Virus record (IMG/VR): IMGVR_UViG_3300048573_000051
Location: 15,996 to 79,995 of that record
Strand: one strand, 5' to 3'
Length of the DNA stretch: 64,000 nt
Origin: a virus
Taxonomy: Duplodnaviria; Heunggongvirae; Uroviricota; Caudoviricetes
The notes under the pieces are model-generated. The model saw only the letters and a program-made list of their open reading frames with translations, was not told where the DNA came from and ran no database searches. The position numbers were made by a program, and so were the translations under genes. Positions 6,157 through 54,301 of this stretch are shown one piece after another. Numbering within the stretch: the first letter of the stretch is position 1; each line of letters opens with the position of its first letter.

Positions 6157-6193
6157 TATCTAAATTACCGAACAATAAAATAAGGAAATTATA

Positions 6194-7207: not shown

Positions 7208-7212
7208 TGATT

Positions 7213-7262: not shown

Positions 7263-7275
7263 TCTAACATTAGTC

Positions 7276-8633: not shown

Positions 8634-8646
8634 CTGAAGGAATAAT

Positions 8647-9003: not shown

Positions 9004-9005
9004 TC

Positions 9006-9551: not shown

Positions 9552-9958
9552 TGGCAATTATAGAAATTAAAAGAGCAGCCGAACGTAAACTAAACGCATT
9601 AACTCCTACTATTCCAACAGCTTGGGAAGGTATAAGTTTTGAACCTCCAAATGGTTTATACCAACGAGTTCAATTTACGATTCAAACTCCCGATGATCCT
9701 GTGCTTGGTACAGGTTTTCACAGAGAGCGCATGACACTGCAAGTATTTGTTGTTGGTGCTGCAAACAAAGGAACTTCTGAAGTAATTAACCGTGCAGAAT
9801 TAATCAGAGCGCATTTCGCCAAAGGTTTAGTACTGCAAGAAGGTAACGTAAAGATTCATGTGTTAAGAACACCACAAATTGCTGGTAACACTGTTGTATC
9901 TGAAAGAGTAATCTGTCCAGTTCTAATTGAATTAGTAGCTGAAGTTTATTCTTATTGA
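9551..9958 (+). CDS. putative tail completion / tail terminator protein
   Basis: 135-aa ORF directly upstream of the major tail protein. Confidence 0.3.
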   Translation: MAIIEIKRAAERKLNALTPTIPTAWEGISFEPPNGLYQRVQFTIQTPDDPVLGTGFHRERMTLQVFVVGAANKGTSEVINRAELIRAHFAKGLVLQEGNVKIHVLRTPQIAGNTVVSERVICPVLIELVAEVYSY

Positions 9959-10023
9959 ATCATGGTTGCTGAACCTAAATCAGTACATTTGCAAATGTGA
10001 TAATTTAAATTAAGGAAAATAAT

Positions 10024-26325: not shown

Positions 26326-26880
26326 TCATTGTTTACCTTTCAATTCAGGATTGTACATAAATTCAAGCAAGAACATTGCATTAACGGCTACAGCAGACAT
26401 ATGACTGATAGTTGGGTCACTACTATCTACATCATAGATTTCACCCCTCCTAATAGCCTCAAAATGCCTCATAAGAGCATCCATGTAGCGTTGTTCAGCA
26501 CCTTCTACCTTCTGCCAGTTATTACGCTCTTTATACTTCTTTAAACCTTCAGTTAAATTACGTGCAACTTCCTGTAATGCATACGGAGGTACTAATGTAT
26601 ATTGAAACTTACCTTGATCGTACTTAGTACCGGGAGTTTGCGGTTTATGGTTAGCTTCAAAGCCTTTCCAATCTTGCATTTGATGTGTATTAGACCGTAA
26701 ATCTACTGTTGAAACTGGTACAAAATACACATCATCTCTGGCACAATCTACAAACTTATTTGCAGATGTACACTCGTTACTACCGTTACGGAATGCACAT
26801 AGATTACACCCCTTACTGCTCTCTCTGTCAAAGATAGGTGTATAAACCTCACCGTTAACCGTAATATTGTCCAAACTCAT
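26326..26880 (-). CDS. hypothetical Cys-rich (zinc-binding?) protein, possible nucleotide-hydrolase partner
   Basis: 184 aa; N-terminal Cys cluster CNLCAF...ECTS...VDCA and a conserved-looking C-terminal helical half; directly downstream of the MazG-like gene. Confidence 0.3.
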   Translation of the reverse strand: MSLDNITVNGEVYTPIFDRESSKGCNLCAFRNGSNECTSANKFVDCARDDVYFVPVSTVDLRSNTHQMQDWKGFEANHKPQTPGTKYDQGKFQYTLVPPYALQEVARNLTEGLKKYKERNNWQKVEGAEQRYMDALMRHFEAIRRGEIYDVDSSDPTISHMSAVAVNAMFLLEFMYNPELKGKQ

Positions 26881-33332: not shown

Positions 33333-34145
33333 TTACTCCTTTAGTAAAATTTGTTTAACATTCTCAAACTTAGCAGCATCAAACATATCCAAGATATCTG
33401 TATAGTTATCAATTGCATAGTTTCTAAACCAGCCTGAACACAGTGTAGTACAAATCTTGTTGACTGATTTGTAAAACGCTAGTTTAGCTGGTGTATTCCA
33501 ATCGCTAGGCACTAAGAACCTTTCAGTTGAAATAACATAAGCTTCTTCTGCAATGCATCTAAGTTTGTCTGCATGACTTAGATTGTACCACAAATTTTTA
33601 TCGCACCACGCTAACTTTGAATCTTTTTGTAATTTTTTATACAAAGGTTGATCGTAATAGGCAAACAACTCGTGCAAGTAATCGTGATTGTACTTCTTAG
33701 TTACAGCATCATCAAAGAAATCTTCTACTGTTTGCATCAAGTTTGGATTACCTTGTGGGTATGCTGACATTGTAAGTTTGGTGCGTTTGTTTAGTACATC
33801 TTCATCTTTGTCAGTAAAGAAAGGACGAAATACTTTTAAGTACAGATTGTAGTGCGTCATATGTTTTTCAAACTTCCGATCACGCCACAAGTGACTGCGC
33901 TTTACAATAGCAAGGCCAACAGGATTAACTACGTAAACTCTTTGACCTGCAATCTCAATGTAGTGCGTACTTGCATAGTTTAGTAGATCGTAATTACCGA
34001 CTTGATCAAATGTATGCCATTCAATGCGCTTATTGTCATCTTGAATTTTATGTTCGCTGATAACATCCCAATCTGAATCTGGCTTTGCTTTAAACGTAGC
34101 ACTCCAGTATTGCAATGCTTGTGAACCGATCAGAAGATTTTTCAT
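33333..34145 (-). CDS. hypothetical protein (start revised to the ATG at 34145)
   Basis: The track ORF extends to 34277 and overlaps a tRNA; the internal ATG at 34145 has an AAGGAG RBS at 34151-34156. Confidence 0.45.
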   Translation of the reverse strand: MKNLLIGSQALQYWSATFKAKPDSDWDVISEHKIQDDNKRIEWHTFDQVGNYDLLNYASTHYIEIAGQRVYVVNPVGLAIVKRSHLWRDRKFEKHMTHYNLYLKVFRPFFTDKDEDVLNKRTKLTMSAYPQGNPNLMQTVEDFFDDAVTKKYNHDYLHELFAYYDQPLYKKLQKDSKLAWCDKNLWYNLSHADKLRCIAEEAYVISTERFLVPSDWNTPAKLAFYKSVNKICTTLCSGWFRNYAIDNYTDILDMFDAAKFENVKQILLKE

Positions 34146-34160
34146 GTTAACTCCTTTATT

Positions 34161-34238
34161 TGGTGGACAGTGGCAGAGTCGAACTGCCGCCATGCTTGAG
34201 TTACAAACACCTGTTAGCCGTTTACACAGTAACTGCCC
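34161..34238 (-). tRNA. tRNA-like gene with a non-canonical anticodon arm (anticodon ambiguous)
   Basis: 78 nt with a CCA end; acceptor stem GGGCAGT/ACTGTCC (one G-U); D arm CTGT/ACAG; T arm GGCAG-TTCGACT-CTGCC; anticodon region GTGTTTGTAACTCAAGC folds only with a 5-nt loop or with G32/U37, both atypical. Confidence 0.5.
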
Positions 34239-34700
34239 ATGTTTGGTGTGAGCGACAGGTAACGCTCCTGCTTCCAACGACTTATGAGGTCGCTGCCTGA
34301 CTTCTCGGCTTCACTCACGGTTATAGTAAAATATACATAAATACACTTTACTATAAACTCTGGTCCCTAAACCAGTATTATAGTGTCTTTCGCTCCCGTA
34401 GAAGATTTCTCTCCTATTATTCGTTACACTATTGGACGACAATCCGCATGCTGGAAATCCTGCAGTACAGCGCAACTTGTACTTGCATTTTTAATGACGG
34501 GACTTACACCCGCCTCGCTGGAAGTTTGCCGCTAACTCTAGGGATTTGAGCAACAGGCATCAGCGGGACTATTTATGAATTTAAACTTACGAATCCTTTG
34601 ATTTCCGACTATCGCAGCTTAGATATATCTAGAATCATCTACGAGTAAGTACAAAGGCATCGAGGCTGGCAACCTTTCGGTTCATTCGTAAGTTTAAAAC

Positions 34701-34802
34701 TGGTGTAACTGGATGGATTCGAACCATCGGCTTGGTTTACCCTCTGGCATTTGGTCCTTCACCGTGAAGAGGTTCCTGCTCTACCAACTGAGCTACAGTT
34801 AC
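34701..34802 (-). tRNA. aberrant 102-nt tRNA-like gene with a 49-nt central region lacking a canonical anticodon arm
   Basis: Perfect acceptor stem GTAACTG/CAGTTAC with ACCA end; consensus D arm TAGCTCAGTTGGTAGAGC; T arm GATGG-TTCGAAT-CCATC. No 5-bp/7-nt anticodon stem-loop can be drawn between them; there is an internal hairpin CTTCA-cgg-TGAAG flanked by CCTCT/AGAGG. Confidence 0.45.
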
Positions 34803-38026: not shown

Positions 38027-39745
38027 TCAATGATTGTTTAACCAGTCATCCAAGCTATGCAGTGTATGAGTGGCATTGTCGTAGTAGATAGAACCAGCAG
38101 GTCCAGTCAAACCGCATACACGATTCTTAGTTACGCTGATTTCAGTACTGTTACGTGTGATCTCACTTTCAGCCATCTTATCACGTTTTAGCAAGATATT
38201 AGCAGAAGCAGATTTGATAATCGTACTAGAACCCATGATGTTCTGTTCGCTATCAGCACCGTTTTGACCTGCAGGTGTCTTACGCATGTGGTTAATAAAG
38301 ATGAAAGTAATGCCGTGACTCTTAATAAAGCCTTTAGCCCACTTCATAAATTCCGCTTGCTCTTCGTTAGATAGACCATCCAAAATATCTTGCAGTGGGT
38401 CCAGTACGATTACTTTCGCACCACAAGCAGAAACTAACTCTTCAACAGTGTCTTGAATTTCTTCAATTGAACCATCGCGGTTATCTAGCAGATAGAAACG
38501 AGAATCACCATCTTCTTTAATGGTAAGTTCTTTTGCTTTTTCTACTACACGGTCTGTACTCAAGTAAGCCATCTTCTCGTCTTGGCTTTCGATTAGTGCA
38601 AGCTTCTTTTCAAGGTGTCGTGACAATAGCACTTCACCATATTGACCTGCATCTAATTCCATTGACACAATACCTACAGTGTGTGGAGAGTTAAAAATCC
38701 AGTAGTAAATCAATTCGTTTACCAGTGTAGTTTTACCAATGCCTGTATCTGCAGCAATGTTTACAATGTGACCTAGTGGCATACCACCAACGAACAACTC
38801 GTTAAGCTTTTGCATGAAAGGTGGAAACGGAATCTTGGCAACCGCAGTTTGACCCATGATTCGGTCATACAGTTTACTAGAAGCTAATACACCTACAGGA
38901 ACTTGCTTTTTAGCATCATAAAAATCATGAATGAACTCCTTTGCTTTGTCTTTTTCAAGATATTCGTTTGCGTCTTTATAACGCATTGGCATAATCTTGA
39001 CCTTACCTTTTGGTAGTACTTTAAGTAGTTGCTCTGTAGCAGTTTGACCAGCCTTATCATTGTCATATGAAATAACAATATTCTCAAACGAATCAAAGAA
39101 CCTGAATTGTCCTGCAATTTGTTTGTGCGAGTTAGCACCTGTAGTTGGAGACACTACAGCAGTTTCAAATACACCGCCTTTGGCTTCAGCATACTCAGAC
39201 AGCATTTGATATGCAGATAGTGCGTCAATTTCACCTTCGGTAATGATCACATATTTACCACCACGGTTAAATCGAAACTGCATGAACAACTCGCAGTCAG
39301 CCCCTGTTCGACCTTTGGAATAGAAATTCTTAGGTACTTCACGGACCTTGTAGCCTACCAATTGACCTTCTTGTGTGCAAGGGTAGTACTGCTCAATAAC
39401 TTCGCCTGTATCCTCTGCAAAAGCATGTCGTACACCAAACTTAGTGTAAACAGCATCATCAATACCACGAAAGCCTTTAGCCTTAACAGAAGTTTCAGAT
39501 TTAATCTCTGAATTCTCTTCTGGTGTAAGTGCAGGTTTTGTACTTGGTTTAACTTCCATGTTCTCTACTTCCTTTTTAACGCTAGAGCGAACTCTAGATG
39601 GTTTCTTTTGATTTGCTTCTTTGAACTCTTCAGATGGTATTGTATGCTCACAAACAAAACAGTGACTTGATTCGTCTTGATACACTGCTCTACCATCTGA
39701 ACTGCCGCATTTATCACAACTTGTATGCCTGATAAAATTCGCCAT
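38027..39745 (-). CDS. primase-helicase (zinc finger + TOPRIM + DnaB/gp4-like helicase)
   Basis: N-terminal CDKCGSSDG...CFVCEH zinc ribbon; TOPRIM-like ITEGEIDALS; Walker A GMPLGHIVNIAADTGIGKTT and helicase motifs. Confidence 0.85.
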   Translation of the reverse strand: MANFIRHTSCDKCGSSDGRAVYQDESSHCFVCEHTIPSEEFKEANQKKPSRVRSSVKKEVENMEVKPSTKPALTPEENSEIKSETSVKAKGFRGIDDAVYTKFGVRHAFAEDTGEVIEQYYPCTQEGQLVGYKVREVPKNFYSKGRTGADCELFMQFRFNRGGKYVIITEGEIDALSAYQMLSEYAEAKGGVFETAVVSPTTGANSHKQIAGQFRFFDSFENIVISYDNDKAGQTATEQLLKVLPKGKVKIMPMRYKDANEYLEKDKAKEFIHDFYDAKKQVPVGVLASSKLYDRIMGQTAVAKIPFPPFMQKLNELFVGGMPLGHIVNIAADTGIGKTTLVNELIYYWIFNSPHTVGIVSMELDAGQYGEVLLSRHLEKKLALIESQDEKMAYLSTDRVVEKAKELTIKEDGDSRFYLLDNRDGSIEEIQDTVEELVSACGAKVIVLDPLQDILDGLSNEEQAEFMKWAKGFIKSHGITFIFINHMRKTPAGQNGADSEQNIMGSSTIIKSASANILLKRDKMAESEITRNSTEISVTKNRVCGLTGPAGSIYYDNATHTLHSLDDWLNNH

Positions 39746-39753: not shown

Positions 39754-40785
39754 TTATTCGTTTTTAAGTAACCATTTGTTGTTAATTGCCTTAAAGCTGC
39801 AATCATGCACAGTGTTACTCTTAAACACCAAACCTTCACGTTCACTGCCATTTAACAAAGACTTACCTTCAGCATGTTCTAATAGAATCTGAATAGTACA
39901 GTCTTTAATATTGGCAGTTTCTCTGATGATAGGCACATGCTTTAACCCAAGCTTTTCACACGCCGCTTTAAGCTGTACAGGTAAGATATATTGTCCTGTG
40001 TGGGTATTGTACATGTCGTAAACGTAGAAGTCAAGCTGTACTTTGTACTGATTTCCTTGGATACCTTCACCGATCATTTCACCTTGAATTGCCATACCCT
40101 TCATAAAATTACGGCGCATGATATCTTCAATATTAAACTTACGTGCTACTTTCCAGAATGAATTTGCTTCGTCTTCTTTCAAGTCTAAGTTACGTGAGCA
40201 TACATGGAATACACCTTCATCATCAAGATAGAATGTGGAAGAGGAGCCATCAAGCTTTTCCGTGATTGACCAAGTATCTTTTTGGTACTCTTCAAACTGT
40301 CGTGTCAAGTTTTGAATACGCTCTTGATCAGTCTTTGGTACTAGCGCAGGGAAATTACCTCGTGCCATACCAGCAAGTTGAGCGTTCATGGGGCGTTCCC
40401 ATTTGATAATACCAAGAATATCACTTACATCTGATCCTTCGAATTCATCAGGAGTTAGCCAATCTTCTTTTTGTACTTTCGTTAGTACATTTAATGGTAG
40501 CAACAAACCTTGTGAAATTTGACCACGTAGTTTTACTGTACGTAGGCGCTCACCCTTTACACCTTCAAATTCACGAGGCTCTTTACCTTTAGATAGGAAT
40601 GGTGCAATATCGTGACCTACCCACGAGTCAATTTCGATATACACGGCAAGTGAATCAACTGCAAATTCACCCTTCTTTACTACAACTTTCCAACCATCGA
40701 CTACAGCGACTTCAATAGCATCTGCACCTTCGATGGGTTCAATTGCTGCAATCTTACGAATAGTTGCTAATTTACGTTCTGTCAT
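39754..40785 (-). CDS. RNA ligase-like nucleotidyltransferase (Rnl5-like: N-terminal OB-type domain plus central KxDG motif)
   Basis: Motif I ITEKLDGSS in mid-protein; N-terminal MTERKLATIRKIAAIEPIEGADAIEVA resembles the N-terminal domain of the DraRnl-type RNA ligase family. Confidence 0.45.
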   Translation of the reverse strand: MTERKLATIRKIAAIEPIEGADAIEVAVVDGWKVVVKKGEFAVDSLAVYIEIDSWVGHDIAPFLSKGKEPREFEGVKGERLRTVKLRGQISQGLLLPLNVLTKVQKEDWLTPDEFEGSDVSDILGIIKWERPMNAQLAGMARGNFPALVPKTDQERIQNLTRQFEEYQKDTWSITEKLDGSSSTFYLDDEGVFHVCSRNLDLKEDEANSFWKVARKFNIEDIMRRNFMKGMAIQGEMIGEGIQGNQYKVQLDFYVYDMYNTHTGQYILPVQLKAACEKLGLKHVPIIRETANIKDCTIQILLEHAEGKSLLNGSEREGLVFKSNTVHDCSFKAINNKWLLKNE

Positions 40786-40796: not shown

Positions 40797-41711
40797 TTAC
40801 ATGTCATCTTTATGTCGAATACCAACTAAAACCGGAAATCTAGGTACGGAGTATCCTGTGCCAACGTCAAAGTACTTAACCTTTGCAAGTTGACCCATCA
40901 GTGATTCTCTGCGTTCCCACAAGTCTTCTCGGATAGCATCAGTCATACCACTGCCACAACTGAATGTATCGCCTTTAGAGGTACGTAGAAGCAACGATCC
41001 CATTGTATCTAAGGCTACCATACCGTCTTTAGCTGTAGAGCGTTCTGTGCGGCCTAATTCATTGGTCTTTGCTTCATTGGTGTTGGTGTACTTAGGCTCC
41101 CAACCGATGATTTCAAATTCATTGTCTACAAAGCGTTTGACTTTCTGCAATTCTGGATTCTTAGTTCCAGATCGACCGCACTTATATTTAGCATCGGTAT
41201 CACGAATCATAACACCTTCTGCACCTTGAGCCAGCATTTCAGCTTCAAATTCATCAAGCTGTTCATCGCATGATATGGAATAGTGCGGCAATACTTCTAC
41301 TCGCAATGGTAAACGATCATCACGATCTATCTTAACCAAATGAGCGTAACGCTCTAACCAAGTAGATGTAGGATGAAAGCGGTCAAATACCCAAAAAGTA
41401 AAATCTGGTTCACCCTCAATACGCATAACTCCAGAAGTACTTTGGTTAAATACATCAGGTGCATTCTTATCACCAATGATTAGTTCACCATCTAGACCCT
41501 CCAGTAACCCACCTGTCCACTGGTTCTTAAAATAAGCTTGAATAAACTTATTTGGAATCGATTTAAGACTACGTGAATAAGCTACACCACCAAATACAAT
41601 GCAGCGAATACCGTCAAGCTTTTCAGACATATATCGGTTTGCTGGTTGTGTCTTAACCTTGGTTTGCTCGATTGCAAGTTGTGGCTTAAAGCCCTCTGGA
41701 ATTGTCATCAT
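40797..41711 (-). CDS. ATP-dependent DNA ligase (T7-like, minimal)
   Basis: Motif I SEKLDGIRC near the N-terminus; 304-aa size typical of phage ATP-dependent DNA ligases; replication module. Confidence 0.6.
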   Translation of the reverse strand: MMTIPEGFKPQLAIEQTKVKTQPANRYMSEKLDGIRCIVFGGVAYSRSLKSIPNKFIQAYFKNQWTGGLLEGLDGELIIGDKNAPDVFNQSTSGVMRIEGEPDFTFWVFDRFHPTSTWLERYAHLVKIDRDDRLPLRVEVLPHYSISCDEQLDEFEAEMLAQGAEGVMIRDTDAKYKCGRSGTKNPELQKVKRFVDNEFEIIGWEPKYTNTNEAKTNELGRTERSTAKDGMVALDTMGSLLLRTSKGDTFSCGSGMTDAIREDLWERRESLMGQLAKVKYFDVGTGYSVPRFPVLVGIRHKDDM

Positions 41712-42283
41712 CGTTCTCCATGTTGATCTGTATATTTTTGAAAATAGTCTCGATTTAAAATTTCAATAGCTGTTTTTCGAGCCTCATATGCTTTATTAAA
41801 AGCAACAGCATCTCCGTATTTTACTGCAGAAAACGAAAGGTTCATCTGTTCACCATTAATATTTTTCCAAGTTGCTCTCCAACTTTTATTTTTGGAGTCA
41901 TACGAAACACCTGTAATTCCTGAGCTATTGTTAGAATTTTTACTTCTATTTTGTAAATTTTCTCTGAAAGATTTTACACAAAGATTTTTTAAATTGTTAT
42001 TGTGTGCATTTCTGTCCATATGATCAATAACACAAGATTTATCAAAAATATCAAAATCAGGGTTAAACAGTTTCCAAATAATTCGATGTACAGCATAAGA
42101 TTTATTATCAAATGTAACTCGCCAACTCTGCGGTTTACCTGTTTTTCTAAATATTCTGTGTCCGGCAATATCATTAAAATGAGCAACTGTTTGTCTACCT
42201 TTTTGAGTAAGTTTGTTACATTTCCAACGTAGGCAACTTTCACTTGTCTCATCGTAATAAAAATAATCTTCAAATCTGATCAA
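41708..42283 (-). CDS. HNH-AP2 homing endonuclease
   Basis: VIDHMDRNAHNNNLKNLC HNH core followed by an AP2-like GITGVSYD...WRATW domain; paralogous to 53720..54301. Confidence 0.6.
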   Translation of the reverse strand: MIRFEDYFYYDETSESCLRWKCNKLTQKGRQTVAHFNDIAGHRIFRKTGKPQSWRVTFDNKSYAVHRIIWKLFNPDFDIFDKSCVIDHMDRNAHNNNLKNLCVKSFRENLQNRSKNSNNSSGITGVSYDSKNKSWRATWKNINGEQMNLSFSAVKYGDAVAFNKAYEARKTAIEILNRDYFQKYTDQHGER

Positions 42284-43730: not shown

Positions 43731-44531
43731 TTACTTACCGATCGAAACCATTCCCTTGAAATCCATCGGTACAACAATTGTATTTACACGCCCTGCTGCA
43801 ATGCCTTCTGCAATCTTCATTTGTGCTTGCGCTTGCATATAAGCAATAGACTGACCAGAGTTAGAACTTAGTGCAGCCATACGCTCGGATTCTTTCTTAG
43901 CAATATCAACTTCAGTTTGCTTAATCTTTAGTTCATTCTGCGCACGAACATAGTTGGTAGCAGACTGCAAAATTTCAGCATTGGGTAGAATGTTACGCAC
44001 TTGCACAACTGTTAGTGATACAGCGTTGTCCAACTTTTCAGCTTTCAGTTGCTCATTTACAGTATCACGGATTTGCTCTTCAATCTTAGCACGATTGTCT
44101 GCAACCTCAAGTGACTTATAACCACGGATTACTTTATATGCAGCATTATTAGTCAATGTAGACATATAATTGTACATCAAGAAAATATCACCTTTACTTT
44201 CAGCATGAAATGATCGACTCTTAGTTGAGTACAGTTCAGATACAGACGTTGAATTTAGACCGTACACAATTGTAATATCAAAGTCAGCGAGAGCACTATT
44301 ATCTGCAGTCATTGGTGTTTTATTGTCTAGGTTAATTGAGATATCTTTTGTTGGAAATGTCAAAATAGAGCCAACTAAAGTTTGATTCCAAGTTCCCGGT
44401 TGCAGTTCTGTACCTTCAATTTGCTTTGATGCATTGACCCGTACACCGACTTCGCCAGTCTCAATGCGAGTGCAACCCACAGAAGCCAAAGCAACTGCAA
44501 CAGCAAGAATAACACTTTTAATAAATTTCAT
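43731..44531 (-). CDS. SPFH/band-7 (stomatin/prohibitin-like) lipoprotein
   Basis: Start revised to MKFIKSVILAVAVALASVGC (signal peptide with lipobox LASVGC; AGGAG RBS); the body has an SPFH-like beta-rich then long coiled-coil architecture ending in a Gln/Ala-rich helix. Confidence 0.5.
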   Translation of the reverse strand: MKFIKSVILAVAVALASVGCTRIETGEVGVRVNASKQIEGTELQPGTWNQTLVGSILTFPTKDISINLDNKTPMTADNSALADFDITIVYGLNSTSVSELYSTKSRSFHAESKGDIFLMYNYMSTLTNNAAYKVIRGYKSLEVADNRAKIEEQIRDTVNEQLKAEKLDNAVSLTVVQVRNILPNAEILQSATNYVRAQNELKIKQTEVDIAKKESERMAALSSNSGQSIAYMQAQAQMKIAEGIAAGRVNTIVVPMDFKGMVSIGK

Positions 44532-44545
44532 AAATACTCCTTTAA

Positions 44546-44722
44546 TTAAAACAAAATAACAATGCCAGCCAGAATTGACACAGCAATGAATCCGAAGAAT
44601 AGCAAGTATAGCACAGTTTTTACTGCTTTCCACTTTGCAGATGCATCTGATTCTTTAAAAAAGAAAAATACTCCTGCTACGATCAGCGTTACCAATGCTA
44701 GTACAAAAATTAGTTTGATCAT
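44546..44722 (-). CDS. small 2-TM membrane peptide translationally coupled upstream of the SPFH gene
   Basis: 58-codon ORF MIKLIFVLALVTLIVAGVFFFFK...; its ATG overlaps the stop of 44719..44964 (ATGA); it ends 15 nt before the SPFH start; not in the ORF track (under 60 aa). Confidence 0.35.
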   Translation of the reverse strand: MIKLIFVLALVTLIVAGVFFFFKESDASAKWKAVKTVLYLLFFGFIAVSILAGIVILF

Positions 44723-46603: not shown

Positions 46604-47047
46604 ATGATCTTGAAACCTGAATTTGCACACATGGTAGACCGTATGGGTCTTGAAGATGCAGAACTTGCACTAGCAGAAATCGTATGGGAGAAAGCTGAAC
46701 GTGCTATGCAAGGCAAACCAGTGCAAGAACCTGTGCTAACTAACAATAAACTGCAAGATTTTCTTAAGTCTTACTCGCATACACATCGTGCAGTATCTCT
46801 TACCACAGAAGAATTGCAGTCGCTTACCAAAGGTCTTTCTGAAGTTCTAGCTGCAGACGAAGAGGCACTGAGTTTCATCAAAGGTCGAATTGATGCTTGC
46901 TGGCAAAAGAGTAACCCTGACGATGCAACCACTGAAGCTTACTTTAACACGATGAACTTCTATCGTAACGAACAACGTAAGCTTAAAAAGAAACACAAGG
47001 TACTTGCTACTATTCAACACAAACTCAAACAAGCTAAGAAACTGTAA
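46604..47047 (+). CDS. hypothetical early protein with basic C-terminus
   Basis: 147-aa ORF with a GAAAGGAAC RBS; first gene after the early promoter. Confidence 0.4.
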   Translation: MILKPEFAHMVDRMGLEDAELALAEIVWEKAERAMQGKPVQEPVLTNNKLQDFLKSYSHTHRAVSLTTEELQSLTKGLSEVLAADEEALSFIKGRIDACWQKSNPDDATTEAYFNTMNFYRNEQRKLKKKHKVLATIQHKLKQAKKL

Positions 47048-47391
47048 TGACACGTAAACGCTATGAAATTGTTGCAACAGCCTTCGATAAGAAAGGTCGT
47101 GTGCTAGGAACTGGAGTTAACGATTACAACCGTAGTCATCCACTCATGAAGCACTTTGCTGTACAAGCTGGAGAGTCAGAACAAAAGGATAAAATCCATG
47201 CTGAACTTTCTGCTGTACTGGCATCGGGTCGCAAGAATATTCATAGCGTTTTTGTTCAACGGTTTCACAATGATGGTACAATGGCTACTGCTAAACCTTG
47301 TCCAACTTGCCAAGCTATGCTCAAAGGCTTTGGTGTTAAAGTTGTGAGTTATACATCTGAAGAAGGAATTAAAGAATATGAAGTTTCCTAA
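47047..47391 (+). CDS. cytidine/deoxycytidylate deaminase-fold protein (second deaminase, substrate unknown)
   Basis: HAE (IHAELSAV) and PCxxC (KPCPTCQAML) zinc-binding motifs of the CDA fold in a 114-aa protein. Confidence 0.45.
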   Translation: MTRKRYEIVATAFDKKGRVLGTGVNDYNRSHPLMKHFAVQAGESEQKDKIHAELSAVLASGRKNIHSVFVQRFHNDGTMATAKPCPTCQAMLKGFGVKVVSYTSEEGIKEYEVS

Positions 47392-47647
47392 ATTTTACAA
47401 TCCGTTTAAACCGCACATTGTTTCATTTGGTGATAAGTACCTTGTACGTAGATGGTATGGATTGTGTTGGTCGTACAAAGAAACATTTACATTCCGAAAC
47501 GATGAACCGCTATGGTGGTGTCTATGGGAATGTGTCAATAAGTACTGCGTGTGCAACTCATTAGCACAAGCTATTGCACTACGAGATAAAGTGTGGATTG
47601 ATCCTATGAAAAAACCTAAAGTTAAGATGAAAGTGATTCATGGCTAA
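47378..47647 (+). CDS. hypothetical Cys/Trp-rich small protein
   Basis: 89-aa ORF between the two deaminase genes. Confidence 0.3.
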   Translation: MKFPKFYNPFKPHIVSFGDKYLVRRWYGLCWSYKETFTFRNDEPLWWCLWECVNKYCVCNSLAQAIALRDKVWIDPMKKPKVKMKVIHG

Positions 47648-48083
47648 TCAAAAAGACCTTGATGAAACCTACATGGGTACTGCCATATTGCACAGCAAAC
47701 TATCCAAAGCCCGTAGAGCGCAGGTAGGAGCGATTTTAGTAACTAGGCAAGGTGTTACCCTCAGCGGATACAATGGCACTGCTGTAGGCCGTCCTAACGA
47801 ATGCGAGACATTTGACACTGTAGTTATCAACATGCCAGTGTACATAACAAAACCAGAAGTTATCCATGCCGAGAAAAACGCAATTTTAAAAGCTGCTCGT
47901 GAAGGTGTAAGTTGTGTAGATGCTACAATGTATGTTACACTAGCACCCTGTGTACAATGCGCTGCTATGATGCTACAAGCTGGAATTAAGCGTGTGGTGT
48001 ATTTGCAACAGTACCGAGATAATTCTGGTGTTGAACTCCTACAAGAATCAAATGTAGTGGTACAATTGTATGATCAACTTTAA
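47640..48083 (+). CDS. dCMP deaminase
   Basis: HAEKNAI ... TLAPCVQCAAMMLQAGIKRVVY is the canonical dCMP deaminase zinc motif; 147 aa. Confidence 0.7.
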   Translation: MANQKDLDETYMGTAILHSKLSKARRAQVGAILVTRQGVTLSGYNGTAVGRPNECETFDTVVINMPVYITKPEVIHAEKNAILKAAREGVSCVDATMYVTLAPCVQCAAMMLQAGIKRVVYLQQYRDNSGVELLQESNVVVQLYDQL

Positions 48084-48912: not shown

Positions 48913-49139
48913 ACGAACGAATTAAAGAACTTGCAAACAAAGCAGGATGTGACTATCTTTATGATTACTCAGAAGACGGTCATGCTGTGGTCTGTAACTT
49001 GAGTGATATTGAAAAGTTCGCCAAGTCGATTATTCAGGAATGTTTGAAAATTATTGAACCCACAGAAGATAGTGGTGATGAGTGGTGCGTAACCCTTAAA
49101 GGGGCTGCTGAAGAGATTAAAGAACATTTTGGAGTATAA
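48897..49139 (+). CDS. hypothetical protein, paralogue of 54850..55059
   Basis: Begins MNERIKELANKAG and ends EEIKEHFGV; the paralogue begins MNERIEELMFEAG and ends EILEHFGV. Confidence 0.35.
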   Translation: MGDKMNERIKELANKAGCDYLYDYSEDGHAVVCNLSDIEKFAKSIIQECLKIIEPTEDSGDEWCVTLKGAAEEIKEHFGV

Positions 49140-49566
49140 AATGAACAAACAAAAACCTACGCTACTCCTAATCAGAGGCGTACCGGGCAGCGGTAAATCA
49201 ACGTTTGCAAACCTACTTAATCAATATGCACTGACTATGATTAACTTGGAAGCTGATGATTTCTTTACAAAGTACAATGCTGAGACTAACTCCTTTGATT
49301 ATGAGTTTGATCCAACAAAACTAAAAGATGCACATCAGTGGTGTCAATCTACTGCTTTGCATTTTCTAGAGCAAGGGTTTAACGTTTCGGTGTCCAACAC
49401 TAGCGTTACAGAGTGGGAAGTTGCTACGTATATGGATATTGCAAATCTTGCTGGTGCTAATTTTGTAAGTCTTATCGTAGAGAATTATCACGGTAACAAA
49501 AACATTCACGGTTGTCCTGACGAAAAGGTACAGCAGATGAAACGTAAATTTCACACGCAACTCTAA
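49129..49566 (+). CDS. P-loop polynucleotide 5-prime-kinase-like protein (Pnk kinase domain only)
   Basis: Walker A LLLIRGVPGSGKSTFANLL closely resembles the T4 Pnk N-terminus GCPGSGKSTWAREF; 145 aa. Confidence 0.5.
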   Translation: MEYKMNKQKPTLLLIRGVPGSGKSTFANLLNQYALTMINLEADDFFTKYNAETNSFDYEFDPTKLKDAHQWCQSTALHFLEQGFNVSVSNTSVTEWEVATYMDIANLAGANFVSLIVENYHGNKNIHGCPDEKVQQMKRKFHTQL

Positions 49567-49574
49567 AGGAATAT

Positions 49575-50465
49575 ATGCTGTTAACATACGATCAACAAAT
49601 GAACTTGGTTAATCGTGGTCTAGCTACCATGAAAAATGATGGGAAATACACTACGTTCAAATACCATCGTAGAGCCATGTATGATTATCTCTGGTATGAA
49701 GTACCTGAATTGTTGGAATCGCGTGGACACGTATACCACAATAGCACAAAAGAACTAGTACAAGCTGCTCCACGTAAAAGCTTCAATTATCTTGAACGTG
49801 GCTACTGGAGTGAAGTACCACTAGATACTCCAGTTGAAATGTACAAGAAAATCAATGGTTTTATGGCTTGTGCTACACTACACAATGGTGAATTGATTGT
49901 ATCTACTACAGGTACAACCACAAGTGAATACGCTCAGTGGGCTAAAGATTTAATCGTTCGTGATATGAAACTTTGGGATATTATGCTTGATGATAAAACT
50001 ACAGTTCTATTTGAAGTTGTAGTACCACAAGACCCACACATTGTACAAGAGCGTCAAGGTTTGCACTTACTTGGTGTACGTGAGAAGGATACAGGAGATT
50101 TTTACCCTTTAGGTTTTAATACTCGTTGTTCTTTAGAGCAAGCATTGGAAATCGCAAAGTGCGCCCGTGGTGAAGGTTTTATGGTATATCCTTTAATTGC
50201 TGATGCAGGTAATCCATTTGGATACCACAATTACAATCACTGCTGTAAACTAAAGACTCCATACTACGTTGGCAAGAAAAAGTTGATGCGTATGACAGCA
50301 AAGAACGTTGAATTGATGTACAATAATCTTCCGCACACGATCAGTACGTTACCTGAGATGTGGCATGAGGTTCCTGAACAGATTGTACAGAGCGTTCATA
50401 AAGACACATGGTTAGCTATGAACGATCAACAACGCAGGGTAATTCTTGAAGATTTTAAAGGATAA
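49575..50465 (+). CDS. putative RNA ligase (Rnl2-like nucleotidyltransferase)
   Basis: Candidate motif I KINGF resembling the Rnl2 KIHG; 296 aa; located between the kinase and phosphoesterase genes. Confidence 0.35.
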   Translation: MLLTYDQQMNLVNRGLATMKNDGKYTTFKYHRRAMYDYLWYEVPELLESRGHVYHNSTKELVQAAPRKSFNYLERGYWSEVPLDTPVEMYKKINGFMACATLHNGELIVSTTGTTTSEYAQWAKDLIVRDMKLWDIMLDDKTTVLFEVVVPQDPHIVQERQGLHLLGVREKDTGDFYPLGFNTRCSLEQALEIAKCARGEGFMVYPLIADAGNPFGYHNYNHCCKLKTPYYVGKKKLMRMTAKNVELMYNNLPHTISTLPEMWHEVPEQIVQSVHKDTWLAMNDQQRRVILEDFKG

Positions 50466-50470
50466 TAATT

Positions 50471-50656
50471 ATGCAAGGTCACAATTTTAACCGTACATTA
50501 CATGCCAAAGGTCTGTTTGTGTATAATAACTGTGGCCTTATTCGTTTGAATAATCGTGCTACTGAAAAGCAGGTCAATAAGCCTTGCGTTGGACTACGAG
50601 AGCTAGAAGACGAAGAGTGTTTGAAACTCAAAGGACAAATGAAAGGTAAACGATGA
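50471..50656 (+). CDS. hypothetical protein
   Basis: 61-aa ORF; an unlisted 53-codon ORF follows at 50653..50814. Confidence 0.25.
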   Translation: MQGHNFNRTLHAKGLFVYNNCGLIRLNNRATEKQVNKPCVGLRELEDEECLKLKGQMKGKR

Positions 50657-50813
50657 AAGAAATTAAACTACCAATTGAAGTTCAGCTTGTGGTTCGAAGT
50701 AAAGACCTACCAGATACATGTGAACTGTTATTACATCTTCAAGATATTGTAGATGAATGGTACCGGAGTAAAGTTCCTACAATTCCTTGTGCATTTATTA
50801 GAAAGAACAGATA

Positions 50814-51386
50814 ATGAAAATATTCACAAGTGATTTGCACTTTGGACATAAACGAATTGTAGAATTTACAAACCGTGCTGTTGATTGCACCTCACAAGAA
50901 AATCACACAGAGTGGTTAATCGATGTTTGGAACACAGAGGTATCTGCAGGTGATATTGTGTATCATCTAGGGGATTTCTCATTCTTTAAAAAGTACAGTG
51001 AAGTAGCTGATGTTGTTTCACAGCTTAAGGGTTCTAAGATTTTCATCAAGGGTAATCACGATAAACGAGAGCATCTAGATGAACTGGTAGAAGACCAACT
51101 AATCGCAGCATGGTATGACTACAAAGAGATTAAACTAGGTGATACTCCTGTAGTACTATTTCACTATCCTATCGCGTCTTGGCATCGTCAGGGTCATGGT
51201 GCATATCATCTGCACGGTCACTGTCATGGAAACTTTAAAGATAGTAAAGGTAAAATGCTTGACGTAGGTATTGATTCAGTGTATAATCTGTATGGTAAGC
51301 ATGGGTTTTTAAACGAACAACAGATTAGTGAATTCATGAAAGAAAAAGAAATCTACATTGCAGATCATCACAAGGAGTATAAATGA
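50814..51386 (+). CDS. calcineurin-like metallophosphoesterase (candidate 3-prime-phosphatase / 2-prime,3-prime-cyclic phosphoesterase)
   Basis: DLHFGH ... HLGDF ... GNHD ... metal-binding motifs of the metallophosphatase superfamily; 190 aa. Confidence 0.6.
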   Translation: MKIFTSDLHFGHKRIVEFTNRAVDCTSQENHTEWLIDVWNTEVSAGDIVYHLGDFSFFKKYSEVADVVSQLKGSKIFIKGNHDKREHLDELVEDQLIAAWYDYKEIKLGDTPVVLFHYPIASWHRQGHGAYHLHGHCHGNFKDSKGKMLDVGIDSVYNLYGKHGFLNEQQISEFMKEKEIYIADHHKEYK

Positions 51387-51895
51387 AAGATATCCACCCG
51401 AAGCTAAAACTGAAGCTTGACACAATCAAGAAAGATTATCAAAAAGTGACAGCATTTGCTGAACTCCTATCATTATTTGCAGGTCGTATCATTGATCGTG
51501 AGTTTACAGGAGATCGTTATTGTGAACTAGCTGATTATTATAAGCAGATTCCTTTTAATTGGGGTATTAACTGGGGTGTCAACTCACCAACTAACTTTCC
51601 AGATGATAAATATCACCAAGGTTTAGTCAATGTATATATCAACTGCATGAGTCTATTTCATGATGATGTTTATCATATTGCACAAAAAGAATTGTGGGAA
51701 GCAATGAAGGATGTTCCATGCTATTATACTGATGTTCTAAATTCTACGTTTTATTTTAAACCTGATGAAATTGAAGTTGGACTAGAAGCTTTAAATAATT
51801 GGTATGTCAAAGTTAAAGATAGCACTCAAGATTATCTGAAAGAACAAAAACGCAAGCAATTACAAGCACAACTACAGGAGTTAGATAATAAATGA
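51383..51895 (+). CDS. hypothetical protein
   Basis: 170-aa ORF; ATGA overlaps on both sides. Confidence 0.35.
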   Translation: MKDIHPKLKLKLDTIKKDYQKVTAFAELLSLFAGRIIDREFTGDRYCELADYYKQIPFNWGINWGVNSPTNFPDDKYHQGLVNVYINCMSLFHDDVYHIAQKELWEAMKDVPCYYTDVLNSTFYFKPDEIEVGLEALNNWYVKVKDSTQDYLKEQKRKQLQAQLQELDNK

Positions 51896-52803
51896 TTGAA
51901 GTAAAAATTATCAAAGACAGTTATAACAAAGATTTAAAGTCTCGTTTAACTACATTCGAGTTAGTGTATCCGCGATTTATTCACGGTGAACTAATGACAC
52001 ATCGGATGTTTAGCCGCAATGCAGCAAGCTCTCGTGCTATTCCGATTGATAGGGTTATTGAACTGCTTAAGACAAATCCAGCGATGCCTGTGCATTGGGG
52101 TAAGAACCAAGCAGGTATGCAAGCTAACACTGAGATTGATAATATCGAAGGTGCAAAGCAATTATGGTTAGCTGCCCGTGATAGCGCCATTAGCCATGCT
52201 ATTGTTATGCGCGATATGGGATTGCACAAGCAGATCGTTAATCGCGTATTAGAGCCATTTCAATTGATTAAGACGATTGTCACCGCTACGGAACTAAACA
52301 ACTGGTTTTGGCTGCGCGATCACCTTGACGCACAACCAGAGATTAAAGAACTTGCAAAGAAAATGCTAGAGGCTTATGATAAATCAACACCAGAGCAACT
52401 ATTTGAAGGCGAATGGCATGTGCCTTATGTAGAGACATATAGAGCCAATGAGTCCGAGAATTTCCACTATCTAGACGAAAACGATAAGTACATCACTGCA
52501 GATGAAGCACGTATGATCAGTGCAAGTTGCTGCGCTCAAGTATCGTACCGTAAGAACGATGGAAGCTTAGAGAAAGCTGCAGTAGTATTTGATCGTTTGA
52601 TTAACTCTGTACCTGTTCATGCAAGCCCTGTAGAACACATTGCAACACCTATCACGAATAAAATGATGCTAGGTCTATGCGATGAAAACAGGTTAATTCA
52701 GGGCATGACGCACGTAAGTGAAAATGGTCAACCTTGGTCTGGTAATCTACGTGGTTGGGTGCAATATCGTCAACTAATTGCTAACAATGTAAAGGAAGGT
52801 TGA
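51892..52803 (+). CDS. thyX: flavin-dependent thymidylate synthase ThyX
   Basis: ThyX signature ELMTHRMFSRNAASSRAIP (RHR ... SxR) and overall size of 303 aa. Confidence 0.8.
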   Translation: MIEVKIIKDSYNKDLKSRLTTFELVYPRFIHGELMTHRMFSRNAASSRAIPIDRVIELLKTNPAMPVHWGKNQAGMQANTEIDNIEGAKQLWLAARDSAISHAIVMRDMGLHKQIVNRVLEPFQLIKTIVTATELNNWFWLRDHLDAQPEIKELAKKMLEAYDKSTPEQLFEGEWHVPYVETYRANESENFHYLDENDKYITADEARMISASCCAQVSYRKNDGSLEKAAVVFDRLINSVPVHASPVEHIATPITNKMMLGLCDENRLIQGMTHVSENGQPWSGNLRGWVQYRQLIANNVKEG

Positions 52804-53719: not shown

Positions 53720-54301
53720 TTGAAAAAGCTTATAAAGAACGCTGGTTTTAAATTGGAATACGCTGACTATTTTGAATATACCAGTGAAAGTCCTAGCGGA
53801 TTAAAGTGGAAATTTTCTCATGGTTGGAATGGAAGATATTTTATTAATAAAGAAAATAGTGTAGTTGGTACGATAGTTTATCAAAGAAAGACAGGTAAAC
53901 CTCAAAAATGGGTTGTAAAGTTTGATGGCAAGTATTTAGCAGTACACAGAATAATTTATATTATGTTCCATTCCAACATAAATGAGAATATGGTGGTTGA
54001 TCACATAGACAGAAATCCGTTAAACAATAGTATCGAAAATTTGAGAATTGTGCCAAAATTGATCAATAATCGGAACTACTCGAAATATGCAAACAATACA
54101 TCTGGTAAAACTGGTGTACAATTAACAAGAGATAACAGATTTAGAGTTACATGGAAAGAATTTGGTAAACATTGCACAAAATCTTTCAGTATTTCTAAAT
54201 ATGGCTATGATACAGCTAAGAAATTGGCGTATTCTTTTAGGGATAATGTTTTAGAACGTTTGAAACAAACCCACAACTTTTCATCAAATCATGGAGAATA
54301 A
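53720..54301 (+). CDS. HNH-AP2 homing endonuclease
   Basis: VVDHIDRNPLNNSIENLRIV HNH core plus an AP2-like TGVQLTRDNRFRVTW domain; AT-rich. Confidence 0.65.
   Translation: MKKLIKNAGFKLEYADYFEYTSESPSGLKWKFSHGWNGRYFINKENSVVGTIVYQRKTGKPQKWVVKFDGKYLAVHRIIYIMFHSNINENMVVDHIDRNPLNNSIENLRIVPKLINNRNYSKYANNTSGKTGVQLTRDNRFRVTWKEFGKHCTKSFSISKYGYDTAKKLAYSFRDNVLERLKQTHNFSSNHGE

What the first reader, a model, noticed from the sequence alone, without database searches (positions are those of the whole stretch)
49129..51386. Split Pnkp-like RNA end-healing and sealing cassette (kinase, ligase, metallophosphoesterase)
A 145-aa P-loop protein with a T4-Pnk-like Walker A motif (GVPGSGKSTF), a 296-aa putative ligase (candidate motif I KINGF) and a calcineurin-like metallophosphoesterase (DLHFGH/GDF/GNHD) are encoded within 2.3 kb. 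Together they supply the three activities of bacterial Pnkp (kinase, phosphoesterase, ligase), but as separate polypeptides and with a metallophosphoesterase rather than the T4 HAD-type phosphatase. With the Rnl5-like ligase at 39754..40785 and the tRNA genes, this looks like a counter-defence toolkit against host tRNA/RNA nucleases, arranged differently from the T4 pnk/rnl paradigm.
Basis: partly seen in the sequence, partly recalled or inferred. Interest (0 to 1): 0.6.

Follow-up and report, generated by a model that had tools for sequence, protein, structure and literature searches.

The report
Phage three-gene RNA break-repair cassette
This uncultured phage carries three neighbouring genes (an RNA 5'-kinase, a T4-type RNA ligase and a metal-dependent phosphoesterase) that most likely repair cut RNAs such as tRNAs; the trio is real and coherent but occurs in hundreds of sequenced phages and some bacteria, so it is an untested member of a known kind of system, not a new one.

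Summary
Three co-directional ORFs lie at 49141-49566 (kinase; the real start is the ATG at 49141, giving 141 aa, not 145), 49575-50465 (ligase) and 50814-51386 (metallophosphoesterase, MPE). All quoted motifs are present.

Functional coupling is well supported:
- All 18 unfused phage loci examined carry all three genes within about 3 kb, in several different orders.
- Kinase-ligase, ligase-kinase and kinase-MPE-ligase fusion proteins exist.
- In Neisseria, Campylobacter and Moraxella, a kinase-ligase fusion gene sits next to the same MPE subfamily.

The RNA heal-and-seal reading is therefore supported, by inference only. "Pnkp-like" applies to the logic, not the ancestry. The cassette occurs in at least 620 GenBank phages and matches published comparative-genomic predictions. 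A link to the Rnl5-type ligase at 39754-40785 is untested. Verdict: new member of a known kind, moderate interest.

The parts
49141..49566 (+). Standalone P-loop polynucleotide/RNA 5'-OH kinase candidate (141 aa; Walker A GVPGSGKST, putative general base Asp39, His-rich lid ENYHGNKNIHGCP)
49575..50465 (+). Rnl1-type ATP-dependent RNA ligase candidate (296 aa; motif I K92-I-N-G-F, motif III E147, motif IV E200-G201, motif V K225/K227; short helical C-terminal region 229-296)
50471..50656 (+). Small ORF (61 aa) between ligase and MPE; clade-specific filler, not a core partner
   Evidence: Found between ligase and MPE in 8 of 12 close relatives, absent from distant lineages. In L003, L006 and L010 the MPE ORF follows the ligase ORF directly. 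Weak phrog_7020 hit only.
50653..50814 (+). Small ORF (53 aa), no homologs in any fetched locus; not a core partner
   Evidence: No family hits; no matches in related loci.
50814..51386 (+). Binuclear metallophosphoesterase of the aq_1665 subfamily (190 aa; D7-x-H9, G53-D54, G80-N81-H82-D83, H117, G135-H136-x-H138); proposed 2',3'-cyclic phosphodiesterase / 3'-phosphatase
   Evidence: phrog_547 3.6e-48; Metallophos_2 3.2e-5, just below gathering; aq_1665 (1xm7) 1e-6 single sequence and 7.5e-20 profile; motif conservation. Adjacency to kinase/ligase in 18/18 phage loci and 26/80 bacterial loci.

Best explanation
The three genes encode a split RNA end-healing and end-sealing pathway. When an RNA is cut by a metal-independent ribonuclease, the break carries a 2',3'-cyclic phosphate and a 5'-OH. 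The most plausible target is a tRNA nicked in its anticodon loop by a host defence nuclease. The metallophosphoesterase is proposed to open and remove the cyclic or 3'-phosphate to give a 3'-OH. The P-loop kinase transfers a phosphate from NTP to the 5'-OH. The Rnl1-type ligase adenylylates itself on Lys92, transfers AMP to the 5'-phosphate and joins the ends.

Shown here: the folds and families of the kinase and ligase; the completeness of all three active sites; and the conserved physical linkage and fusion of the three gene families.

Inferred: the enzymatic activities, the order of steps, the RNA substrate, and the counter-defence role.

For: MPE: all five metal-binding motifs are conserved.

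Linkage:
- Ligase in 640 and kinase in 628 GenBank phage records, with near-identical genus counts.
- All three genes within about 3 kb in 18/18 unfused loci from seven lineages, in four different orders.
- Fusion proteins: kinase-ligase (P0349), ligase-kinase (P0316, P0325) and kinase-MPE-ligase (P0344, P0355, P0388, Lb338-1 gp41).
- In bacteria, 26 of 80 loci of this same MPE subfamily have the ligase upstream on the same strand. In 24 of them one ~500-aa ORF also matches the kinase.
- The Moraxella locus also carries RlaP, named for RNA repair.

Established knowledge: binuclear MPEs such as the CthPnkp phosphatase and lambda phosphatase hydrolyse 2',3'-cyclic phosphates (PMC2190708, PMC3675462). 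Phage ATP-dependent RNA ligases are predicted to work with kinases and phosphoesterases, including calcineurin-like ones (PMC7824862).
Against: No activity has been measured for any member of this triad, and I found no functional study.

The MPE subfamily has no characterised member. It occurs without the ligase in many genomes: 1628 vs 640 phage records; no ligase or kinase annotated within 5 kb in Kayvirus, Gilsonvirus or Schiekvirus; and 54 of 80 bacterial loci. No fusion contains this MPE subfamily.

The kinase lacks the arginines that T4 Pnk uses (Arg38, Arg126) and has a His-rich lid instead.

The ligase C-terminal region is about 65 aa, against roughly 120 aa in T4 Rnl1 (size from my own knowledge), so tRNA specificity cannot be assumed.

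In this phage the genes lie in a long, tightly packed operon with nucleotide-metabolism genes. Adjacency within this one genome is therefore weak evidence by itself.
Confidence: 0.7

Rival explanations
1. Only the kinase and ligase form an RNA repair pair. The metallophosphoesterase has a separate job, such as hydrolysing cyclic or linear nucleotide signals, acting as a nucleotidase, or dephosphorylating proteins. It merely tends to sit in the same early-gene neighbourhood.
For: The MPE family is 2.5 times more widespread in phages than the ligase (vs 17). It stands alone in Kayvirus, Gilsonvirus and Schiekvirus and in 54/80 bacterial loci. No fusion includes this subfamily. Its only solved relative is uncharacterised. 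There is weak similarity to the DNA endonuclease PdeM.
Against: The MPE lies within about 3 kb of the ligase in 18/18 phage loci despite four different gene orders. It lies next to the ligase, in most cases a kinase-ligase fusion gene, in 26 bacterial loci from at least five genera, one of which is clearly not a prophage. Trifunctional fusions show that an MPE-type phosphatase is the natural third partner of this ligase clade.
Confidence: 0.14
2. The cassette belongs to nucleotide metabolism. The kinase is a nucleoside or dNMP kinase and the MPE a nucleotidase, working with the flanking dCMP deaminase and ThyX. The 'ligase' is unrelated.
For: The genes lie between dCMP deaminase (47640-48083) and ThyX (51892-52803) in one operon. 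Some metagenome pipelines named kinase homologs 'uridine kinase'.
Confidence: 0.04
3. The trio processes DNA ends rather than RNA. It would heal 5'-OH/3'-phosphate nicks or single-strand breaks in phage DNA and join single-stranded DNA.
For: From my own knowledge, T4 Pnk acts on DNA as well as RNA, and some Rnl1-family ligases join ssDNA. There is weak MPE similarity to the ligase-associated DNA endonuclease PdeM. A UvrD-like helicase lies beside the Moraxella locus.
Against: The phage already has a dedicated ATP-dependent DNA ligase at 40797-41711. The ligase's closest relatives, T4 Rnl1 and Trl1, are tRNA/RNA enzymes. The Moraxella locus carries RlaP, an RNA-repair marker. The PdeM match is far below its cutoff (19.7 vs 150 bits).
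Confidence: 0.06
4. The cassette matures the phage's own RNAs rather than repairing host-inflicted damage. For example, it could rejoin a phage tRNA-like transcript after an insertion is excised.
For: The window encodes a tRNA-like gene (34704-34802) with about 26 extra nt in the anticodon arm. A compensatory change supports a structured insertion. The Rnl1 clade includes the eukaryotic tRNA-splicing ligase Trl1.
Against: The cultured relative DC31 has the cassette but not this tRNA. The cassette occurs in hundreds of phages and in bacteria, where I saw no such gene in the few loci I examined. No splicing endonuclease was identified. No excision giving a canonical anticodon arm was found.
Confidence: 0.04

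Closest known systems
Phage T4 tRNA repair pathway (Pnkp + Rnl1), which counters the PrrC anticodon nuclease
   Different: In T4 the kinase is fused to a HAD-type (DxDxT) phosphatase. Here the kinase stands alone, no HAD domain is detectable in the window, and the phosphatase candidate is a binuclear metallophosphoesterase. The ligase lacks most of the T4 Rnl1 C-terminal domain. Motif I is KxNG rather than KxDG.
Bacterial Pnkp-Hen1 (Clostridium thermocellum Pnkp) and Pnkp1-Rnl-Hen1 RNA repair systems
Fungal/plant tRNA ligase Trl1, and the split standalone LIG and KIN enzymes of Mucorales
   Different: Trl1 uses a 2H cyclic phosphodiesterase that leaves a 2'-phosphate, and the pathway needs Tpt1. 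Here the phosphoesterase is a metalloenzyme, and no 2H or Tpt1 gene was seen among the ORFs scanned.
Uncharacterised trifunctional phage proteins of the Lactobacillus phage Lb338-1 gp41 type (AAA_33 + Metallophos + RNA_lig_T4_1, about 750 aa)
   Same: They carry the same three enzyme classes with the same Rnl1-type ligase clade. Their kinase and ligase domains are detectably homologous to the window proteins.
   Different: They are fused into one chain. Their MPE domain is the PF00149 type and shows no specific similarity to the window MPE. Their N-terminal half resembles bacterial Pnkp (TIGR04075, 5e-20).
Uncharacterised bacterial operon: kinase-ligase fusion gene plus aq_1665-type MPE (Neisseria, Campylobacter, Moraxella, Cardiobacterium, Conchiformibius)
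   Same: It has the same three families, including the same MPE subfamily, adjacent on the same strand.
   Different: The kinase and ligase are fused. The context is cellular rather than phage, and in Moraxella the locus includes RlaP, UvrD-like and TerD-vWA genes.

Membership tests
Rnl1-type ATP-dependent RNA ligase (T4 Rnl1 / Trl1-LIG clade, PF09511) | Sequence membership: Pfam RNA_lig_T4_1 at or above the gathering score | tested here: met
   38.1 bits vs cutoff 28.3; family profile vs T4 Rnl1 3.3e-19.
Rnl1-type ATP-dependent RNA ligase (T4 Rnl1 / Trl1-LIG clade, PF09511) | Nucleotidyltransferase motifs I, III, IV and V, with the adenylylated lysine | tested here: met
   K92 aligns with T4 Lys99. 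E147, E200-G201 and K225/K227 align with Glu159, Glu227-Gly228 and Lys240/242, and are invariant across eight divergent homologs. Motif I reads KxNG, not KxDG (128 of 150 representatives have NGF).
Rnl1-type ATP-dependent RNA ligase (T4 Rnl1 / Trl1-LIG clade, PF09511) | Fold closest to Rnl1 rather than to Rnl2/3/5, DNA ligases or the Pnkp ligase domain | tested here: met
Rnl1-type ATP-dependent RNA ligase (T4 Rnl1 / Trl1-LIG clade, PF09511) | T4 Rnl1-like C-terminal domain that confers tRNA specificity | tested here: not met
Rnl1-type ATP-dependent RNA ligase (T4 Rnl1 / Trl1-LIG clade, PF09511) | ATP-dependent sealing of 3'-OH/5'-PO4 RNA ends | not testable with these tools
   Needs biochemistry.
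Polynucleotide 5'-OH kinase (T4 Pnk / CthPnk clade of P-loop kinases) | Walker A GxxGxGK[ST] plus the general-base Asp (T4 Asp35 / CthPnk Asp38) | tested here: met
   GVPGSGKST is present. The Asp of 'EADDF' aligns with T4 Asp35 and is invariant in 49 homologs.
Polynucleotide 5'-OH kinase (T4 Pnk / CthPnk clade of P-loop kinases) | Closest structures and profiles are polynucleotide kinases rather than NMP or nucleoside kinases | tested here: met
Polynucleotide 5'-OH kinase (T4 Pnk / CthPnk clade of P-loop kinases) | Arginines that contact the phosphoacceptor and the transferred phosphate (T4 Arg38, Arg126) | tested here: not met
   There is no Arg three residues after the Asp. The lid region carries a conserved E-N-x-H-G-x-x-N-x-H-x-x-P motif instead. 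The essentiality of the T4 residues is from my own knowledge.
Polynucleotide 5'-OH kinase (T4 Pnk / CthPnk clade of P-loop kinases) | Phosphorylation of 5'-OH RNA or DNA | not testable with these tools
   Needs biochemistry. Fusion to RNA ligase domains is contextual support only.
Binuclear metallophosphoesterase superfamily, aq_1665 subfamily | Five metal-binding motifs (DxH, GD, GNH[DE], H, GHxH) | tested here: met
   D7/H9, G53-D54, G80-N81-H82-D83, H117 and G135-H136-x-H138 are conserved across lineages.
Binuclear metallophosphoesterase superfamily, aq_1665 subfamily | Pfam Metallophos/Metallophos_2 at the gathering score | tested here: not met
   24.4 bits vs 27 for the window protein. 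Homologs in RSP15 and ITTPL pass with 38.0 and 33.9. Profile vs aq_1665 is 7.5e-20. Superfamily membership is secure despite the marginal single-sequence score.
Bacterial Pnkp (TIGR04075; kinase-phosphatase-ligase partnered with Hen1) | Single trifunctional polypeptide | tested here: not met
   Three separate ORFs.
Bacterial Pnkp (TIGR04075; kinase-phosphatase-ligase partnered with Hen1) | Pnkp-type ligase domain and lambda-phosphatase-type phosphatase domain | tested here: not met
Bacterial Pnkp (TIGR04075; kinase-phosphatase-ligase partnered with Hen1) | Adjacent Hen1 2'-O-methyltransferase | not tested
   No methyltransferase hit appeared among the cassette neighbours scanned, but the whole window was not screened for Hen1.
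T4-type Pnkp (kinase fused to HAD DxDxT 3'-phosphatase) | HAD phosphatase domain | tested here: not met

The most novel reading that the evidence does not exclude
In this phage the heal-and-seal trio may not only repair host-inflicted damage. It may also serve protein-dependent maturation (cut and rejoin) of the phage's own tRNA-like transcript at 34704-34802, which carries a structured insertion of about 26 nt where the anticodon arm should be. That would be a Trl1-like tRNA splicing pathway in a bacteriophage. A less exotic and far more probable novelty (about 0.55) is that the aq_1665-type metallophosphoesterase is a previously unassigned RNA 3'-end healing enzyme, and that the trio is a third, very widespread type of phage and bacterial RNA repair system.
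Probability: 0.04. Interest if true: 0.85.

Novelty: new member of a known kind. Interest (0 to 1): 0.38.

Why it matters
RNA-cutting defences are being found in bacteria at a fast pace: anticodon nucleases, HEPN RNases, and PARIS-, OLD- and Schlafen-type tRNases. Yet the only phage RNA repair pathway studied experimentally is still T4 Pnkp/Rnl1 (PMC12445682, PMC10264068).

The trio described here is far more common than the T4 arrangement among non-T4 virulent phages of Pseudomonas, Escherichia, Klebsiella, Vibrio, Acinetobacter and Aeromonas. These include groups used in phage therapy. It also occurs as a cellular operon in Neisseria, Campylobacter and Moraxella.

Showing that it works would do three things:
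- assign a function to the orphan aq_1665 metallophosphoesterase family;
- define the substrate range of a short Rnl1-type ligase;
- help predict which phages can escape tRNA-targeting immunity.

For this particular window, it is one more instance of that widespread module.

Tried and rejected
- The search for related loci with a diverse ligase alignment failed because no stretch was conserved enough. I used GenBank loci and single-protein scans instead.
- Unlisted hits of the first homolog search cannot be retrieved.
- A mirror-tree comparison of kinase, ligase and MPE divergence across eight lineages was uninformative. Identities saturate at 30-45%, with Spearman 0.13, 0.56 and 0.01 once the one close pair is removed.
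- PADLOC gave only a weak P-loop match for the kinase and a trivial MPE match, so the trio is not a known defence system.
- RlaP is absent from the window and from every fetched locus except Moraxella.
- The small ORFs inside and beside the cassette (61, 53 and 170 aa) are clade-specific or positionally variable, so I rejected them as core partners.
- The key comparative-genomics paper on RNA repair systems (Burroughs and Aravind 2016) is not held in the library. I cannot say whether it already describes this exact trio.
- Promoter-like sites around the cassette are not enriched over shuffles: 39 vs 32.9 +/- 5.8.
- Searches for more copies of the insertion-bearing tRNA found only two near-identical ones, and DC31 lacks it. 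ARAGORN models of it are unstable: Arg(ACG) in default mode and His(GTG) with a 7-nt intron in intron mode.
Full report
**What is in the sequence**

The window is a tailed-phage genome fragment. It carries a major head protein, a tape measure protein, ribonucleotide reductase, a family A DNA polymerase, a primase-helicase, an ATP-dependent DNA ligase, and a tRNA cluster that ARAGORN called as three genes.

Exactly the same ligase protein occurs on uncultured-phage contigs of up to 80 kb in JGI and Logan metagenome assemblies. The only cultured relative with DNA-level similarity is Limnohabitans phage DC31, where the whole region is annotated 'hypothetical'.

The three ORFs of the finding exist as described, and the quoted motifs are present.

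One correction concerns the kinase start. It is the ATG at 49141 (141 aa), not the TTG at 49129. The TTG overlaps a GGAG ribosome-binding site 6 nt upstream of the ATG, and homologs and public gene calls are 141 aa.

The genes sit in a tightly packed co-directional block running from 46604 to at least 53032, with gaps of -16 to +12 nt. No terminator-like site lies inside the cassette, and the first strong hairpin with a T-run on this strand is at 54449.

**The ligase**

- It passes the Pfam RNA_lig_T4_1 threshold and matches the PHROG that contains T4 RnlA.
- Alone it aligns to T4 Rnl1, with the adenylylated Lys99 placed on Lys92 of 'KINGF'.
- A profile of eight divergent homologs hits T4 Rnl1 at 3e-19 across motifs I to V, followed by fungal Trl1 ligase domains.
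- The invariant residues in that alignment are R50, K68, K92, N94, G95, E147, E200, G201, K225 and K227. From my own knowledge of the T4 Rnl1 mutational literature, these are the counterparts of the essential Arg54, Lys75, Lys99, Asp101 (Asn here), Gly102, Glu159, Glu227, Gly228, Lys240 and Lys242.

It is therefore an Rnl1-type ligase, not a Pnkp-type one. Only about 65 helical residues follow motif V, so the T4 Rnl1 C-terminal domain associated with tRNA specificity is largely missing.

**The kinase**

- It passes Pfam AAA_33.
- A 49-sequence profile finds only polynucleotide or RNA 5'-kinases at the top of the PDB: the Mucorales tRNA-splicing RNA kinase, T4 Pnk, Pnkp1 and the C. thermocellum Pnkp kinase domain.
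- The Asp aligned with the T4 Pnk general base Asp35 is invariant.
- The arginines used by T4 Pnk are not conserved. The family has a characteristic His-rich lid, E-N-x-H-G-x-x-N-x-H-x-x-P. This is a real difference whose consequence is unknown.

**The phosphoesterase**

All five metal-binding motifs of the binuclear metallophosphoesterase superfamily are conserved. The only solved relative detectable by sequence is the structural-genomics protein aq_1665 (1xm7): 1e-6 for the single sequence and 7.5e-20 for the profile.

There is no specific similarity to the Pnkp phosphatase or to lambda phosphatase. Its substrate therefore has to be inferred from context.

**Evidence that the three genes work together**

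1. In GenBank phages the ligase is found in 640 records and the kinase in 628. The genus counts are almost identical: Escherichia 201/198, Pseudomonas 175/173, Klebsiella 36/36, Acinetobacter 24/24, Campylobacter 23/23.

2. All 18 unfused loci I fetched have all three genes within about 3 kb. These are 12 close relatives, including DC31, plus Ralstonia RSP15, Pakpunavirus ITTPL, Vequintavirus rV5, Phapecoctavirus ESCO5, Vibrio JSF10 and an Acinetobacter Saclayvirus. The gene order differs between lineages: K-L-M, M-L-K, L-K-M, and a divergent arrangement. Proximity that survives rearrangement is the classic signature of functional linkage.

3. Fusion proteins exist. An exhaustive search of 1.84 billion representatives found 1343 relatives of the ligase. 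Among the best 150:
   - P0349 is kinase-ligase.
   - P0316 and P0325 are ligase-kinase. These three carry this very kinase family (E 1e-46 to 1e-50).
   - P0344, P0355 and P0388 are kinase-MPE-ligase by Pfam. Four more proteins of about 750 aa (P0364, P0380, P0382, P0386) have an N-terminal kinase match and a C-terminal ligase but were not scanned with Pfam.
   - P0368 is MPE-ligase.
   
   Lactobacillus phage Lb338-1 gp41 is an annotated example of the trifunctional type, and its N-terminal half resembles bacterial Pnkp.

4. The MPE is the weakest link, because its family is much broader. It occurs in 1628 phage records and has no ligase or kinase annotated within 5 kb in Kayvirus, Gilsonvirus and Schiekvirus. 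I therefore searched bacterial and archaeal genomes starting from the MPE.
   - Among the best 80 loci, 26 have the Rnl1-like ligase upstream of the MPE on the same strand, from a few nt to about 1.4 kb away.
   - In 24 of these, one ORF of about 500 aa matches both the kinase and the ligase profiles. Pfam confirmed the AAA_33 + RNA_lig_T4_1 architecture in two of them.
   - The loci come from Campylobacter, Neisseria (including N. meningitidis), Cardiobacterium, Conchiformibius and Moraxella.
   - In C. concisus the flanking genes are housekeeping genes, so the unit is cellular rather than prophage.
   - In Moraxella osloensis an RlaP gene lies about 2.8 kb downstream on the opposite strand. 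Pfam names this family for its place in an RNA repair pathway.

**Interpretation**

The best explanation is a split RNA heal-and-seal pathway. The MPE removes the 2',3'-cyclic or 3'-phosphate. The kinase phosphorylates the 5'-OH. The Rnl1-type ligase seals the break.

That binuclear metallophosphoesterases can do the first step is established for the CthPnkp phosphatase and lambda phosphatase (PMC2190708, PMC3675462).

A counter-defence role against host RNA nucleases is the accepted rationale for such genes in phages (PMC7824862, PMC9503650, PMC12445682). Here it is an inference.

The rivals are all less well supported, but none is excluded without biochemistry: an MPE with an unrelated function, a nucleotide-metabolism role, DNA-end processing, and maturation of phage RNAs.

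**Comparison with what is known, and novelty**

The trio works like T4 Pnkp/Rnl1 and like bacterial Pnkp, but it is a member of neither.
- It lacks the HAD phosphatase of T4 Pnkp.
- It lacks the single-chain architecture, the Pnkp-type ligase and the lambda-type phosphatase of bacterial Pnkp.

A eukaryotic parallel for a split system exists in Mucorales fungi (PMC11571804, PMC10946426).

In public phage genomes the genes are already labelled 'RNA ligase', 'ATPase' or 'polynucleotide kinase', and 'phosphoesterase', though sometimes wrongly.

I found no functional study of this trio. I could not read the 2016 survey of RNA repair systems.

I therefore class the window's cassette as a new member of a known kind. 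The uncharacterised MPE subfamily, the His-rich kinase lid and the short ligase C-terminus are the features worth experimental follow-up.

**The wider 'toolkit' claim**

The ORF at 39754-40785 is a genuine DraRnl/Rnl5-type ligase. However, it lies on the other strand between the primase-helicase and the DNA ligase, and I tested nothing that links it to the cassette.

The tRNA cluster lies about 15 kb away. Rfam supports two tRNA-Arg genes, plus a third tRNA at 34247-34318.

One of the tRNA-Arg genes (34704-34802) has about 26 extra nt in place of a normal anticodon arm. A compensatory U-A to G-C change in a relative supports a structured insertion. Its nature is unresolved. It is the basis of the low-probability 'novel case'.

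Noticed in passing
window 34704-34802 (-): A tRNA-like gene with canonical acceptor, D and T arms and an encoded CCA, but 41 nt where the tRNA model has a 15-nt anticodon-arm core (about 26 nt extra). The MFE fold has a CCUCU/AGAGG stem (positions 31-35/58-62) enclosing a 22-nt loop. In IMG/VR relative L026 the only three differences are U33G plus A60C (compensatory in that stem) and C39U, which would change ARAGORN's 'ACG' anticodon. ARAGORN's identity call is unstable: Arg(ACG) in default mode and His(GTG) with a 7-nt intron in intron mode.
   Followed up: partly
window 34164-34318 (-), and ORF 33333-34277 (-): Rfam's sensitive mode finds a further tRNA (CAU anticodon, 40.8 bits) at 34247-34318 that ARAGORN and the whole-window gathering run both missed. 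The ARAGORN tRNA-Val at 34161-34238 is sub-threshold in Rfam (27.3 vs 29 bits). Both overlap the TTG-start reading of the DUF7275 ORF, whose true start is probably downstream of them.
   Followed up: partly
window 39754-40785 (-): A DraRnl/Rnl5-type RNA ligase (TIGR02306 195 bits vs cutoff 151; N-terminal PHA02142 OB domain plus PF09414). It lies between the primase-helicase (38027-39745) and an ATP-dependent DNA ligase (40797-41711), that is, in the replication module rather than with the repair cassette.
   Followed up: partly
window 26326-26880 (-): An ORF with the N-terminal domain of dATP/dGTP diphosphohydrolase (PF18909, 2e-26). From my own knowledge, this domain is associated with MazZ of phages that modify their purines. 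No PurZ-like gene was seen among the ORFs scanned.
   Followed up: no
window 47047-47391 and 47640-48083 (+): Two paralogous cytidine/dCMP deaminase-family genes lie close together upstream of the cassette. The shorter one (114 aa) is more divergent.
   Followed up: no
window 7435-8235 (+), 41708-42283 (-), 53720-54301 (+): Three HNH endonuclease genes are scattered through the structural, replication and nucleotide-metabolism modules, and two of them have an AP2 DNA-binding domain. They are likely homing endonucleases.
   Followed up: no
L015 (Pseudomonas phage ITTPL), L018 (Vibrio phage JSF10), L020 (Staphylococcus phage Stab21): In several other phages, nicotinamide phosphoribosyltransferase and a ribose-phosphate pyrophosphokinase-like gene (NAD salvage) lie next to the kinase-ligase-MPE cassette, or close to the MPE homolog. 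No such genes were seen near the cassette in this window.
   Followed up: no
L013 (Ralstonia phage RSP15), L016 (Escherichia phage rV5_ev147): Some public annotations of cassette genes are wrong. The RSP15 ligase is labelled 'metallophosphoesterase' and its kinase 'NEDD4-binding protein'. The rV5_ev147 kinase is labelled 'RNA ligase 1 and tail attachment protein', while the real ligase is labelled 'hypothetical'.
   Followed up: yes
L063 (Moraxella osloensis chromosome) 2660-10587: A cellular locus combines a TerD-vWA protein, a kinase-Rnl1 ligase fusion, an aq_1665-type MPE, a UvrD-like helicase and an RlaP nucleotidyltransferase. It looks like a larger bacterial RNA repair island built around the same core.
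   Followed up: partly
L028 (Limnohabitans phage DC31) 6885-6960: An unannotated tRNA-Arg(UCU)-like gene (Rfam 44 bits) in which the D-arm positions are missing and 17 extra nt lie in the variable region. Atypical tRNA genes may be a feature of this phage clade.
   Followed up: no
window 43731-44633 (-): An SPFH/Band 7 (prohibitin-like) gene. An SPFH gene also sits directly beside the RNA ligase in Pseudomonas phage PHB09 (PMC8622976), and a prohibitin-family gene lies near the MPE homolog in Enterococcus phage A2 (L022).
   Followed up: no
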